Assembly: GCA_963422365.1 (NCBI GenBank)
Contig: OY729426.1
Location: forward strand, 2,144,001 to 2,208,000
Origin: Nitrospirales bacterium
GTDB lineage: Bacteria; Nitrospirota; Nitrospiria; Nitrospirales; UBA8639
Length of the DNA stretch: 64,000 bases
Direction: 5' to 3'
Positions 39,001 to 48,000 of this stretch are shown here, piece by piece. Position numbers: made by a program. How positions within the stretch are numbered: position 1 is the first letter of the stretch; every line of letters starts with the position of its first letter.

Positions 39001-42000
39001 GAAATCTGCCAACAGGCAATACACGCGGATCATCTTTTATCGTGACTGTCCCATTGTGACTGTTCCGGTTCCAATATTCTGGCTATCCTTGAGCATGGCA
39101 GCAAATTTGAAGAGTTGAAAATCTTTCTCGCCGGTGGTATCACTCCTGAAAAAGTAACAGGGCCATTGCTTCTTGGCGATAAGTTCTCCTGTGCGACTAC
39201 GCGCTTCTTTCTCCGTCTCACATTGATAGGGCTCAAACCCGACTCTTCGCAAATAGCGCTCAGCAATGTCTGAGAAAGTAATTCAATGCAGCCTCTCGCT
39301 TAGTTTCGGAAAAATGTTGCGGTTTTCGCCCGACATTTAGAGCTAACAGAGCCATATGCAGCGCCGCTGTTCCAATTTGCAACGGCACGACAATGAGTTC
39401 CATCACCTAAAAAACGCACTGAATTGGGATTCGAACTGAGCGACTCTTTTTCCCATGGAAAGCCAGCCGCCCTGAATAACTTCTGATGCAGCAACTTCGC
39501 GATGATCAAAATTTAACTCAAAAAGCTGTATTGTCCACATTATCTAATCACGCTTTTTAATCCAGCATACAATATGTGACCGCAGTAATGGGCACGAATT
39601 AAATACGTAATAAAGCGCCGGGGGTACGTGACAGACGCGCCGACTCATAACCGGCGACAGGGTGACTTTTTTACCAATAATCTCAGCTTCTGGAAATAGT
39701 TCTTTCACTCGACGCAGAGGACTCCCCTGACATCAGGGTTAGCAGGATTACTGTACAAAAAATCATAGAAAATCACTCCGCCGCCTAGTTTGACCCAACC
39801 CCACATTCTATCTGCCAGATTCTGCCGGAAGTCATCATCTAACAACGGGGGAAAACAACAGGCTGAAAGGACAACATCCTGAGATTCTAGTGACAGTCCT
39901 GCCAAAGCAGCATCACCCTCGATAAGATTTACTGCTTTGGGGAGCATCTCTCTGGCCCTGATCATCCTGTCAACCAGCACTTCAATACCTGTAAGATGCG
40001 CAGGAGAGAAACCAAGGGCCAAAAACTCCGGAATATGTCTCCCGGCACCACAACCTACGTCCGTCAGTTTGAGCTCAGATAAGCTTATATGTGAAAATTC
40101 GCCAACCAATATTTTACATATTGAGTGCTGAAGTTCTTAATGACTAAACAAAACCTCTGGTCGCAACCGTGAGTAGAGTGAAGCGACGGTTCTTTTTCTA
40201 TACCGGTCAGCCAATTCTCTCATTTCCAGATGTGGATTATTCATACGCGACCTTTCGACAAGGGTGTCCGATTATGTTCCAGTCACCACATTTATCGGTG
40301 GGGTCTGATAGACAGAAGATCGAGCGGCGCCACCCGTTCCAATTTTCGAACTAAATACCGCTGAAATAGCATCATTTTTGCCACCCGGTGATTTGACTTG
40401 CCAGGGACCACCAACACAATTCGCACCTGAATCGGCAAGTACTTCGATACATTTCCTCACATAATTTTTGGCGTAAATAGTATGAACGTCCATGCGTCTC
40501 ACATACTCACCTTTTGCAATCATAATCGCATTGTTCAGCCCGGTGGGGACGATTCGATCAGCATTTTCAAGCACTACGATTTCAGGATGAGTTTCTAATA
40601 ATTCGTCAAACATGACACTGGTCCCATCATTACTTTTCCCATCAACTATAATGAACTCACAATCAAGACCAGTGCGATCCTGGCTGAAAACCTGAGACAC
40701 AAATTCCCTGATATGGGATTTTTCATTGAAGCACGGCGTTATTATTGAGACGAGCATGATAATTTCTCGGGTGCAGTCGGCATCTTTACGGCAAAATCAT
40801 TGGTTGCGATAGAATAACAAAACATAAAGAGAGTCCCTCTAAATCCATTTGGCTCGGAGCACACGGAAGATTATGAAATAGGCTGCTATTTGCCTGCGAA
40901 CAGGGCAATCCAGTAATTTGAATGGGTCTTCTACCAATTCTCTAGCAGAAGCACTGTAACTTCAATGGTAACTTGAAGGTGCGGAGACGTCCGCGCGCGT
41001 AGCGCCGTTGCCGATAGTCGGCAGAGCCGTTGAAACGGTGTATCCATAGAACTGCACGGACGAATCGAGCAAACGCGATCTTCACACTGGCCATGATGCT
41101 TTCATCTTGAAATAAGGAAACAGCTTCGCTGTTTGACCCCGACAACCGGAAAACCTCCCCAAGAGTTGCAGTTTGTTGTTTGAGACGCCCTGGCATCCTC
41201 ATGTTTTCTTGTTGCGGTATAGACTCCTCTATCCAATAGGCATTTTTTCAAAGTTTATCATAGGGTTTGCCAGATAACCCTCGTGCACCCGATAATTCCG
41301 GACAAACCGGCAACAACAGCAGGTCGCGCACGGAGATGGTCCTTGAGCAGAGAGAATCACACATTGCGGTCAGTGGCAGCACTGTTCACCACCCCCGCAG
41401 CAAGGCCGATCAGGATCCAGGCCAGACATCCCACGCTGAATATGTTTTGTAGCAGATGAATGTCGAACGTTTCGCATATAAGAACAGCGATAGTGCAGGC
41501 TGCGGCGTAGCAATGCACCGGGGTGACTTGCACGCCGGTGCGCACACGCAGGTTGAAAATCAGGGAAGCGCACAGGAGCGCGAGCGCGCCAAGGCCGAAA
41601 ACCCCTGTCTGTACCCCCACCTGCAAGTAGAGATTGTGGGCGGAAGCGGGAATGGTCTCGAAAGTCAAAGGGTCTACCGCGGCGTTGATGCGCTTGACAA
41701 CATCGCCAAGAGAGGCGAATCCGGGGTCCGGTGCCGCGCCGCACCCGGGAAGTCCATCGGGTCGGGCGCGGGGTTGGCCGCTACTTTGGCCGAGCGGCGG
41801 AAGGCAGCCGGTGAATTGGTTGCCGCGCAGGTGCAGGACCGAGAGCGCATCGAGCTCTGCCAGTTCCGGCGGGATGGCGTCGGTCAGATGGTTGTCCCCA
41901 AGCCACAGCTCCGAAAGGTTCGCGAGTTGGCCGAGCTCCGGCGGAACCGGGCCGGTCAGGGCGTTGGCATCCAGGCCGAGTTCGCGTAAGTTGGCGATCT

Positions 42001-45000: not shown

Positions 45001-48000
45001 CGCTGAGCAGTCCTCCATCGATGCCCAACCCCGACAGGCAGAGCAGATCCCGGGCAAAATCGTGGTCCGCCACCTCGTACAGTCCTTGCGGCACAGCACC
45101 GGAAAAGTCGTTGCCGGCGAGGCGCAGCACCCGCAGGTTACGCAGCCGTCCCAGCTCGGGCGGAATCGGGCCGGTCAGAGCATTGTTGCTCAGCCTCAGC
45201 AGTTCCAGCCTGTTCAGGTGCCCCAACTCCGGTGGCAGGGTGCCGCGCAAGTCCTTTTTCGGCAAATCCAACCCGATCACGCGAGCCGGCGCGCCACCTA
45301 CCTTCACGCCCTGCCACGCCCCGATGGGCCGGGTTCGTTTCCAGTTGAGCGTGGCGTCGCCCGCCAGAACGTCCCGCGCTTCCAGCAGCGCGGTGCAATC
45401 TTCGAGCAGGCCGTTGCCGATACCCGGCGATGGGAATCCTGCCTTGCCGGCAGGCAGGCAGAACAGATCAAGACCCCAATCGTGCTCGCCGACATGGTCG
45501 AGCGTCGGCGGCAAGCCGCCAGCAAGATCGTTTCCGGCAAGTCGCAGAATCGACAGACCGAACGGCCGACCGAGTTCCGGCGGAATGCTGCCGCTCAGCC
45601 GGTTGTTTGCGAGCCGTAACTCCCTCAGGCGCATGAGTTCCCCCAGTTCCGGCGGAATGGAACCGGTGAGCCGGTTGTCGCCAAGGCGTAGCGACACGAG
45701 CCCGTCCAGCGCGCCGAGCGCGGGCGGGAGCCGCCCGCTCAGCCCGAGCCCCGTCAAGTCCAGCCCGACTACTCGTATGCCCCCTGGAGCCTCGCCGACT
45801 GCCACGCCCTGCCATGCCGCGATGGGCCTGGCGCGTTTCCAGTCAAGCGCGGCGTTCCCGGCCAGGGCGTCCCGCGCAGCCAGCAGGGTCTCGCAGTCGG
45901 CGAGCAGACCCTTGCTGAGTCGCGGTAACGGCAGGCAGAACAGGTCCCGGTCGAGGTCATGGTCCGCCGTATCGTGCAGCGCCGCCGGCACGGTGCCGGT
46001 GAAGTCGTTGCCGGCAAGACGTAGCAGCGACAGGTTGGTTAGATTCGCCAGTTCTAACGGTACTTCGCCGCTCAGCCGGTTGCCGCGTAACCACAGATCC
46101 TCAAGGTTTTCGAGCGCTCCGAGTTGCGGTGGGACGGGGCCGCTCAAGGCATTGTCGTCGAGCGCCAGCACCCGCAAGTTGCTCAGCCGCCCCAACTCGG
46201 ACGGGATGGGGCCGGTCAGGGCGTTGTTGCTCAGCCTCAGCAACTCTAGCTTGTCCAGCCGCCCCAACTCCGGCGGAACGACGCCGGCCAATCCCCGTTT
46301 CGACAGATCCAGCGCGACCACCCGCGGCGGCGCGCCACCTACCTTCACACCCCGCCAATCGCGGAGAAGCCTGGAAGGCTTCCACCTCCCAAGAGCTCTG
46401 AAGCCACCGTCCAGGGCATTCCGCGCCTCCAGCAGCGCGGCGCAGTCTTCGAGAAGACCCGGGTTCCAATGGTCCATGCAGGAAGGATCGAGGTCCGACG
46501 GTCTCGCGGCAGGAAGTGCATCCCCCGCCTTGCCGGTCGGCAGCTCGCCCGTCAGGCGTGTGAGCACAGCGCCAGGACCATGGCCAAGCCAGGGGGACTC
46601 CGAGATGGCGACCAGCGAGTACCGCCACAGCACCTCACGACCGGTCAGGAGACTGCCTCCTGTGAAATCTCTGACGGAATCGCCGAAAATCGCTTCTACT
46701 GCATCGGACAACGAAGTGCCCAACAGCACGATTGGTGCGCCGATGAGCAAACCGGCGGTCGCCACCAATACGCCGGTGCGTAACCGGTTTCGCAGGAAAA
46801 AGTACCCGCTCCAGTACAACGGATAGGCCAGCAACGCGGCAAGCACTAGCGATCGGTATCCGAAGATGATGGCAATCAACGCAACCAACAGGAACAGGCT
46901 GTGCGCCCACCAATGCTGACTCTTTCGGTTGTCGGAGCGGGCGATGACGATGAGCCCGACGGTCAGCAGCAAGTAGCTCAGAAGGATGGCGATGCCGTGC
47001 GGGTTGAACTCGGTCGGTAGCAGGTACAGCGGAAACAGTGCCGAGGCTGCTGTCAGCAAGAGGGGGATAACGTACTTGGCCCGAATCAATGTCGGAGCAT
47101 TGCGCCAGCAGAACAGAAAGATGACGCCGGCGAACAGAATCGCGACAAGATTGCTGGCGCCCTGGAGGCTGAACTCCACGAGCAGGCCGGCCGCGTAGAC
47201 CGTCATCAGCGCGGCGAAGCAGAGGACGGTCGTCCGCGCGGAGGCCGGAAATGGCTCCCTGAACAGCGAGAGCGCGAGGAACAACAGGGTCACGCCGAAG
47301 ATCCCGTCGGCGATCGGGCCGGGAGCGTAGATGCGCAGCAAGTTCGCCGCCAACAATAAAGCCAGCAGCACCAAGCTGTCGCCGGGGAAGGACAGACGCC
47401 TGGCGATCACGCCGAGTACGGACGCGCCGCCGATCAGCGCACGTCGAATCCGTGCGACGTAACGATGCCCGGCAATCCGGTGGGACATGTCCGCAACGCC
47501 GGACCGCTTCACTCGGAACCTCTCACGATGTCCTTGATCGCATCCCGCAGGATGATGTCTTCATTCCCCAGCGTGTACTCATCAGGCGGCAGCGCCGCCA
47601 TATTGGCCCGCCAACGATCCCAGATCGCGGCCTCGATACTGCGTATCTCCGCCGCCGCCGCTTCAATCTCGGACGACGCGATGGTCAGTCCGATGTCGAA
47701 CCGACGCACCTGATCGGCATCCCCGCAGCCAGCCCGAACGATGATCGGCCTCTGGAAGAGGCAGGCATCATAGTACCTGTTCGTCCGCTTCCAGCCGTGT
47801 GGTTCCCCTGGCGGATAGCAGACCAGGGCCATGTCGACGCGGCCATAGAGTACCGGCAGATCCGTCGGATGGTCGTAGGGGCCGAGAATCTCGCTGTTGG
47901 GCATTTCTCCCTGTATTTCCGAGAGTTTCCGGCAGGGCGCCGATTGCGGCCCGGCGAGAACTGCGGAGAACCGGTCGGTCGTGCGCATCAACGAGTCGAG

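What a model noticed while it worked through the whole genome (the two positions that open the first line are those of the whole stretch)
41357..47512. An O-antigen ligase/polymerase whose periplasmic loop carries a 1,600-residue leucine-rich-repeat array
g02234 (2,051 aa) is a WaaL/Wzy_C-type membrane enzyme split in two by about 1,600 residues of plant-receptor-like LRRs inserted into the catalytic periplasmic loop, between the conserved Arg motif (res. ~290) and the His motif (res. ~1958). It lies in a flippase/glycosyltransferase island that has moved recently between unrelated co-resident bacteria. It ties a eukaryote-like repeat of sponge symbionts directly to surface-glycan assembly.
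Evidence so far: Pfam Wzy_C positions 2-104 match res. 207-312 and positions 120-147 match the last 160 residues, LRR families lie between. 18 homologues of 1,310-3,253 aa all keep the N-terminal membrane half, 11-37 LRR motifs and the C-terminal 'AHNLxLQ' membrane end. Found in Arenicellales, two other Gammaproteobacteria and a Desulfobacterota genome at 62-79%; 5.1 kb of the island is 94% identical in DNA to the Arenicellales one, flippase 98%; 0 of 114 genomes of its own family have it. No paper with all four terms.
(Added by a program. Inside this text positions count along the whole contig: contig position 2,144,001 is position 1 of the stretch shown here. "Call 12" and the like, gene names such as g00115 and contig names such as C1 are that model's own, and its searches are not shown. 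The text may have been shortened before it was handed on; [...] marks where a part breaks off. The agent that wrote the report below was given it as the finding of a first reader that could run no searches.)

Follow-up and report, generated by a model that had tools for sequence, protein, structure and literature searches.

The report
WaaL-type transferase with LRR array
A membrane enzyme of the kind that attaches sugar chains to bacterial surfaces carries eight plant-receptor-like binding modules inside its outward-facing catalytic loop, and a second, only distantly related enzyme family gained the same modules at a different point of that loop, which suggests the design is useful although it is untested.

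Summary
Confirmed. The intact 2,051-aa gene has nine membrane helices, eight cysteine-capped plant-type LRR modules and three more helices. A one-module relative folds as WaaL plus a SERK-like domain (VIA Z 20.3 to 7TPJ). Arg220, Arg292 and His1959 are kept in 39, 39 and 40 of 40 LRR-bearing relatives (1-16 modules), which nest among LRR-free ones. His points to a ligase/oligosaccharyltransferase rather than a polymerase. The cassette moved recently (flippase 98% to an Arenicellales genome; GroEL 64%).

New here: a second WaaL-like lineage, 17-18% identical in the membrane part, carries the same module type before the second Arg instead of before the His (127 of 141 complete proteins; three genes in two congeners). 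Its LRR-free member lies 5.4 kb downstream. This implies two independent insertions. The LRRs are under purifying selection and more alike among close alleles than the catalytic halves.

In a two-membrane host the array is periplasmic, so direct host contact is unlikely. Sponge origin, acceptor and activity are not shown. The scan noted this architecture before on other genomes (seven notes seen); no paper found.

The parts
41357..47512 (-). LRR-array Wzy_C/WaaL-type membrane transferase, 2,051 aa (lineage A), intact frame
46568..47395 (-). N-terminal membrane half (residues 40-315; nine helices by the homologue model), with Arg220 (46853-46855), Arg292 (46637-46639) and the GxG motif at 310-312
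41768..46468 (-). Array of eight capped LRR modules: 45926-46468, 45428-45925, 45029-45427, 44549-45028, 43832-44548, 43157-43831, 42614-43156, 41768-42613, with 4, 3, 2, 3, 6, 5, 4 and 8 strict 24-residue repeats; most caps preceded by a Cys pair
41851..42341 (-). Recent tandem expansion of a two-repeat (144-nt) unit in module 8, copies 92-97% alike; close relatives have a module 8 shorter by 96 aa
41360..41695 (-). C-terminal membrane half (residues 1940-2051; three helices) with His1959 (41636-41638) in the AHN motif
47509..48657 (-). GT-B/GT4-like glycosyltransferase, stop overlaps the start of the LRR gene; weak Pfam match only (22 bits, cut-off 29.7); 97.8% nt to L002
49032..50444 (-). 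Wzx-type flippase (PF01943); 98.4% nt to L002
50497..51471 (-). GT2 glycosyltransferase (ExoA-like by recalled motif); 99.6% copy elsewhere in the genome; high-GC island ends here
34618..35925 (-). Second Wzy_C gene (436 aa): LRR-free member of lineage B, whose relatives carry LRR arrays before the second Arg; lacks the first Arg itself
32663..34393 (+). Wzz-like coiled-coil membrane protein (weak PF02706, 18.9 bits, cut-off 25.5)
37595..39064 (-). Decayed genes: frameshifted paralogue of the GT2 (37595-38430) and a relic of the genome's only PF02397 priming transferase (38804-39064)
55093..56391 (+). Host-type WaaL-like gene (GC 47.5%) near a GT9 heptosyltransferase; likely the resident LPS ligase

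Best explanation
An active WaaL/oligosaccharyltransferase-type (His-dependent) enzyme. The cassette's glycosyltransferases extend an undecaprenyl-pyrophosphate-linked oligosaccharide and the Wzx flips it outward. The two membrane halves fold into one 12-helix WaaL domain, bind the pyrophosphate with Arg220 and Arg292, and transfer the glycan en bloc to an acceptor activated by His1959. The acceptor is most likely not lipid A core but an envelope protein or other polymer. The LRR modules form a disulfide-capped protein-binding arm that leaves and re-enters the enzyme next to the active site and recruits or positions that acceptor in the periplasm. Shown: architecture, fold of a one-module relative, residue conservation, purifying selection, gene context, two independent insertions. 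Inferred: activity, donor, acceptor and the role of the arm.
For: Model of P0022 (637 aa, one module, 50% identical to the N-half): pLDDT 86.8, pTM 0.78; aligns to WaaL 7tpj_B with Z 20.3, rmsd 4.9, 329 residues over model 6-631, and its insert to GSO1/SERK-type ectodomains with Z 22-24. R/R/H kept in 39, 39, 40 of 40 LRR-bearing relatives. PMC10920833 section 11: O-ligase uses Arg191, Arg265, His313, while related polymerases have Asp/Glu there. PMC9829042 passages: protein OTases share Wzy_C and need the His; PglS's periplasmic domain is proposed to recognise substrates. Two Dehalococcoidia carriers show no LpxC match (0 of 2; 3 of 3 diderm carriers positive) and keep the gene with a priming transferase, flippase and GT2. 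The host has its own WaaL-like gene by GT9. dN/dS 0.17-0.48 in all parts. Lineage B gained the same module type at another site, and 10 lineage-B proteins carry a different, non-LRR insert there.
Against: No acceptor gene is conserved beside the gene in the 7 named loci or the window. The genome has no other plant-type LRR gene to act as LRR partner. All three Wzy_C genes of this genome have the His, so it does not separate their jobs. A Wzx plus glycosyltransferase cassette normally needs a polymerase. The membrane halves reach no curated ligase or OTase cut-off and give no sequence hit to solved structures. Catalytic residues were matched to WaaL by motif and Pfam position, not by residue-level superposition. 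The genome's only PF02397 priming transferase is a relic, so the donor must start from the WecA-like gene or the cassette is idle here.
Confidence: 0.42

Rival explanations
1. It is the Wzy polymerase of the cassette, and the LRR arm holds or measures the growing chain, standing in for a Wzz-type length regulator.
For: Sits in one operon with Wzx and glycosyltransferases in the window and in L002, L005, L007 and L008. Module number varies widely, and lineage B is bimodal (42 with 2 modules, 62 with 9-10, of 127). Four lineage-B proteins have Asp in place of His. Concave faces are Arg-rich (41 of 210 positions).
Against: His in 40 of 40 lineage-A members against Asp/Glu in GT-C1 polymerases. 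Wzz-like genes lie 7 kb away in the window and 4 kb away in L003. No link between module number and chain length is shown.
Confidence: 0.25
2. It is an extra LPS O-antigen ligase that attaches the cassette's glycan to lipid A core, with the LRR arm binding core, a partner protein or the cell wall.
For: Closest solved fold is WaaL; R/R/H signature; host and two other carriers have LpxC.
Against: Dehalococcoidia carriers lack an LpxC match (their completeness was not given). The cassette moves between phyla whose cores should differ. The host keeps a separate WaaL-like gene in its core cluster.
Confidence: 0.15
3. The enzyme works independently of the insert; the LRR array is an adhesin-like or passenger cargo that uses a tolerant loop as a membrane anchor (or is clipped off).
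For: The loop accepts inserts of many sizes and kinds. Arrays recombine independently of the membrane halves. Broken copies occur (L003). Other GT-C proteins of these islands carry accessory outer domains.
Against: Two separate insertions flank the same active site; module order is conserved; LRR core pN/pS 0.12-0.17; about 4.7 kb of DNA is kept. A periplasmic, doubly tethered array cannot reach a host in diderms.
Confidence: 0.18

Closest known systems
WaaL O-antigen ligase (Cupriavidus metallidurans, PDB 7TPJ/7TPG; Pfam Wzy_C PF04932; CAZy GT121, clan GT-C1)
   Same: Fold of the membrane part (Z 20.3, rmsd 4.9, 329 aligned, 16% identity, on homologue P0022); Arg/Arg/His; large outer loop near the C-terminus.
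   Different: Arg-to-His spacing is 1,667 residues against 48 in WaaL (Arg265-His313) and 34-38 in plain relatives; not in an LPS core cluster; also found in genomes without an LpxC match. The bimodular WadA (GT121 plus GT25) has an appended enzyme domain, not an inserted repeat array.
O-linking oligosaccharyltransferases PglL, PglS, TfpO, TfpM
   Same: Wzy_C domain and essential His (PMC9829042 passages); accessory periplasmic domain in PglL/PglS; faint TfpM matches for LRR-free relatives (E 0.005-0.008).
   Different: Their extra domain is C-terminal and not LRR; no pilin or other acceptor gene seen next to this gene; far below the TfpM cut-off.
Plant LRR receptor ectodomains (SERK1/2/BAK1, GSO1, BIR, SOBIR1)
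   Same: 24-residue GxIP repeats with an N-terminal helical cap and Cys pair; Foldseek TM 0.77-0.84 by target length to SERK-type chains; sequence E 5.6e-156 to GSO1.
   Different: Eight short capped modules in tandem, tethered at both ends inside an enzyme loop; no kinase. Likeness shows no plant origin.
Wzy polymerases of clan GT-C1 (GT125-GT129)
   Same: Wzx/GT gene context; one or two conserved Arg.
   Different: They carry Asp/Glu at the His position; lineage A has His throughout.

Membership tests
Wzy_C / WaaL-fold (GT-C_B) enzymes | WaaL-like 12-helix membrane fold with a large outer loop near the C-terminus | tested here: met
   On homologue P0022, not on the 2,051-aa protein itself:
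Wzy_C / WaaL-fold (GT-C_B) enzymes | PF04932 score above 31.7 bits | tested here: inconclusive
   28.4 bits for the whole protein; 34.4 bits for the N-half in the genome search
GT121 O-antigen ligases | Two pyrophosphate-binding Arg and the acceptor-activating His | tested here: met
   Arg220, Arg292, His1959; 39, 39, 40 of 40; matched by motif and Pfam position, not superposition
GT121 O-antigen ligases | Match to the CAZy GT121 profile | not testable with these tools
   No CAZy profiles held; no RfaL hit for the query in NCBIfam
GT121 O-antigen ligases | Lipid A core as acceptor | not testable with these tools
   Needs an assay; host has LpxC, two Dehalococcoidia carriers show none
O-linking OTases (PglL/PglS/TfpO/TfpM) | Wzy_C domain with essential His | tested here: met
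O-linking OTases (PglL/PglS/TfpO/TfpM) | Family model cut-off or adjacent pilin acceptor gene | tested here: not met
   No OTase model hit for the query; no pilin among the neighbours scanned (ORFs under about 130-200 aa were not all scanned)
GT-C1 Wzy polymerases (GT125-129) | Asp/Glu at the position of the WaaL His | tested here: not met
   His in 40 of 40; criterion from PMC10920833 section 11
GT-C1 Wzy polymerases (GT125-129) | Located with Wzx and repeat-unit glycosyltransferases | tested here: met
Plant-type capped LRR domain | 24-residue LxxLxLxxNxLxGxIP repeats with N-terminal cap | tested here: met
Diversifying LRR receptors | Positive selection on the concave face | tested here: not met
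   Concave pN/pS 0.73 (L002), 0.60 (L003), 0.14 (L004, 24 codons); convex 0.49-0.79; pairwise counts only

The most novel reading that the evidence does not exclude
A modular glycosylation system of complex bacterial communities: WaaL-fold transferases have at least twice recruited interchangeable LRR arms (and once another domain) on either side of the active site; the arm sets which protein is glycosylated and how far from the membrane; short- and long-armed paralogues work side by side; arms and catalytic frames recombine separately and cross phyla. Acceptor choice would then be reprogrammable by swapping arms.
Probability: 0.25. Interest if true: 0.85.

Novelty: new variant of a known kind. 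Interest (0 to 1): 0.7.

Why it matters
How WaaL-fold enzymes choose their acceptor is poorly understood. A family that tolerates up to about 2,900 inserted residues beside its catalytic His, and that evolved twice, offers natural variants (0-16 modules, tandem paralogues with 1, 2 and 9 modules in one genome) to test whether an inserted binding arm directs glycosylation. It also cautions against counting every LRR gene of symbiont-type genomes as a host-mimicry protein, since this one is confined to the periplasm.

Tried and rejected
Sequence searches of solved structures with the N-half, the host WaaL-like protein and an LRR-free profile: 0 hits. Single-sequence model of modules 1-4: pLDDT 50, uninformative, so array geometry is unknown. 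IQ-TREE timed out; FastTree used; no formal topology test. First locus scan failed for lack of a conserved stretch. JGI metagenome scan: 0 of 473 candidate stretches confirmed. N-half not found in 150 other genomes of the Arenicellales order; in 400 genomes of the host's phylum only 3 weak matches, E 3e-4 to 5e-4, in frames of 247-442 aa. Searches used an out-of-frame query and are discarded; repeated in frame. No RNA holder listed. Atlas gave no hit for the non-LRR insert of lineage B. Run X6 covers the stretch only patchily. Assembly chimera rejected: host-depth contigs bridge both island edges in X1, X3 and X5 (X1 may be the source sample). Hypervariable-receptor reading rejected. Recent module swapping between lineages A and B not seen: best identity 66%, median 58%, 272 against 637 modules. 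NCBIfam effector and internalin hits are LRR cross-matches far below cut-off. Literature: 0 papers; one search listed 1 unrelated title; searches listed none on this architecture (listings only).
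Full report
Observation. The minus-strand frame 41357-47512 is open for 2,051 codons and its GTG start overlaps the stop of the upstream glycosyltransferase. Pfam finds LRR families far above cut-off and a split Wzy_C match. The middle holds eight modules, each a helical cap with a W...W-x-G-V motif, mostly preceded by a Cys pair, then 2-8 strict 24-residue repeats, 35 in all. 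It is the only gene in the genome with two or more strict plant-type motifs. GC is 62-67% over the four cassette genes against 53% for the genome.

Assembly and transfer. Contigs at host depth bridge the 3' edge (40894-41522) and the 5' edge (from 51400) in runs X1, X3 and X5 (X1 may be the source). Summed contig depth over the island is about 1.7-6 times the flank in X1, with variants 95-99% alike. This fits several carriers in one sample but is no copy number. The Arenicellales locus L002 shares window 41385-50344: flippase dS 0.037, GT4-like gene dS 0.044, whereas GroEL is 64% identical. The N-half is found in 0 of 114 family genomes. I found no mobility gene among the 28 window proteins scanned.

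Lineage A. The N-half query gave 15 long proteins and 44 representatives of all lengths. Of 65 sequences examined, 58 had both halves; I dropped 5 fragments or distant rows, leaving 40 with modules and 13 without. Arg-to-His spacing forms a series: 34-38 residues in plain relatives, 56-94 in four close LRR-free ones, then 229 to about 2,900 with 1-16 modules. The module-bearing proteins nest within the long-loop LRR-free group (support 0.996), but their own monophyly is weak (0.61; 0.07). Arg220, Arg292 and His1959 are kept in 39, 39 and 40 of 40. Named carriers are four Gammaproteobacteria, one Paracoccaceae and two Dehalococcoidia. L005 has three tandem paralogues with 9, 1 and 2 modules; L003 is split in two frames.

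Fold and topology. The one-module relative P0022 gave a confident model (pLDDT 86.8, pTM 0.78) with nine helices, the insert and three helices. It aligns with WaaL 7tpj_B over model residues 6-631 (Z 20.3, rmsd 4.9, 329 aligned), the only membrane enzyme of this kind among 50 rows, and the insert matches plant ectodomains (Z up to 24.1; SERK-type on top). An Arg-rich N-terminus and basic loops after even-numbered helices put the insert outside the inner membrane (inference from the sequence), which fits the Cys pairs. Because both ends return to the enzyme, I estimate a reach of at most about 15 nm (recalled rise per repeat). In a two-membrane host that is periplasm, not cell surface. The four-module model failed.

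A second insertion. A DNA search of the genus showed LRR arrays in G005 and G023 flanked by sequence like the window's other Wzy_C gene at 34618-35925. Three genes of 1,950-2,035 aa with nine modules are 44-49% identical to that gene and have no BLAST hit to the query's halves. Their array lies before the second Arg; Arg-to-His spacing stays 42-43. Two searches gave 80 and 93 proteins (only 8,000 candidates scored each). Of 180 sequences (173 hits plus 7 from loci, some redundant), 141 had both halves: 127 with LRR modules, 10 with a non-LRR insert (Ig-like by recalled motif; no Pfam or atlas name), 1 cap only, 3 with none; none had LRRs in the C-half. His is kept in 116 of 127, Asp in 4, Asn in 2, 5 unread; the first Arg in 107, Gln in 7. 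Membrane parts of A and B are 17-18% identical, each group sits with its own LRR-free kin, and forcing all module-bearing rows together costs 411 log-likelihood units (50 selected sequences, 349 columns, FastTree, no formal test). The modules are of one type (median best identity 58%). Different site plus separate ancestry means at least two insertions. Lineage B genes occur in 4 of 5 proteobacterial lineage-A carriers, with LRRs in the Pseudomonadales one, and in 0 of 2 Dehalococcoidia. Module counts are bimodal (2 or 9-10), and by my count at least 14 contig lengths are shared by a long and a roughly 750-840-aa protein, suggesting paired paralogues.

Selection and mosaicism. Against L002 the membrane halves are the most diverged part (N-half 78.5% aa, dS 0.35; C-half 84%, dS 0.41), while modules 1 and 8 have dS 0.16 and 0.12 and the upstream genes 0.04. 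Orthologous modules keep their order and are 74-98% identical in the three closest relatives. So arrays and catalytic frames recombine separately. All regions have dN/dS under 0.5. The concave face is relaxed but not positively selected.

Mechanism. PMC10920833 (abstract and sections 8, 11, 12 read) gives Arg191, Arg265 and His313 for WaaL and Asp/Glu at that place for related polymerases. PMC9829042 (passages) shows the His is needed in TfpM and proposes substrate recognition by PglS's periplasmic domain. With no LpxC match in two carriers (a lead from note e1-6375336) and a resident WaaL-like gene beside GT9, I favour en-bloc transfer to a non-LPS acceptor with the array as recruiting arm (0.42), ahead of polymerase (0.25), cargo (0.18) and LPS ligase (0.15). 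Against: no acceptor gene is evident, all three Wzy_C genes here have the His, and the PF02397 priming gene is a relic, leaving a WecA-like gene near window 10.2-11.3 kb as the likely primer.

Habitat and literature. No call shows a sponge source. PMC9531527 (passages) reports LRR enrichment and gene transfer among Nitrospiria, Dehalococcoidia and proteobacteria in Ircinia sponges, which fits the carrier list; one distant lineage-B relative is labelled Tectomicrobia. PMC12004945 (passages) added only general Wzy topology. The WaaL structure paper was not read. No supplements were consulted. Ten paper searches were run; none listed this architecture, in a library lacking most subscription journals. 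Earlier scan notes describe the same design on other genomes.

Verdict. Real, intact, mobile and apparently undescribed: a new variant of the WaaL-fold transferases, strengthened by a convergent second origin, with function untested. Interest 0.7.

Noticed in passing
window 34618-35925: The LRR-free lineage-B Wzy_C gene lacks the first conserved Arg and lies among decayed genes; it may be losing function, or may have lost an insert (its tree sister L006:5923-7656 has one degenerate module).
   Followed up: partly
window 50482-51435 and G000:C1:1457116-1458069: The cassette's GT2 gene has a 99.6% identical copy 0.74 Mb away, in a short high-GC patch without the rest of the cassette.
   Followed up: partly
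window 38450-40760: Low-GC relics: priming sugar transferase, a DegT-like aminotransferase fragment (recalled motif), a methyltransferase fragment and a truncated GT2; signs of an older glycan locus being replaced.
   Followed up: partly
L018:8487-14594: One of two tandem lineage-B genes in G005 has Asp where its neighbour has His; three other clusters share this, a natural ligase-to-polymerase-type change.
   Followed up: partly
L015:15481-17223: 580-aa lineage-B protein with a roughly 120-residue non-LRR insert at the LRR site; a similar motif occurs in the outer domain of a neighbouring GT-C-like protein (L015:9045-11345).
   Followed up: partly
L015:11377-14520 and L003:6615-8585: PMT-like membrane proteins in the same islands share an unnamed C-terminal outer domain; one also has a deacetylase-like domain (recalled).
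   Followed up: no
G015, G021: Congeners carry giant open frames of 8,000-36,000 codons with many LRR matches.
   Followed up: no
L002:2812-5190: In the Arenicellales genome the cassette sits directly downstream of comEC.
   Followed up: no
window 51607-51906: Non-coding stretch upstream of the island with 78-80% matches at two other places in the window region (contig 2148073-2148233, 2151257-2151386).
   Followed up: no
P0143: Lineage-B protein fused to a C-terminal GT4 domain (2,230 aa).
   Followed up: no
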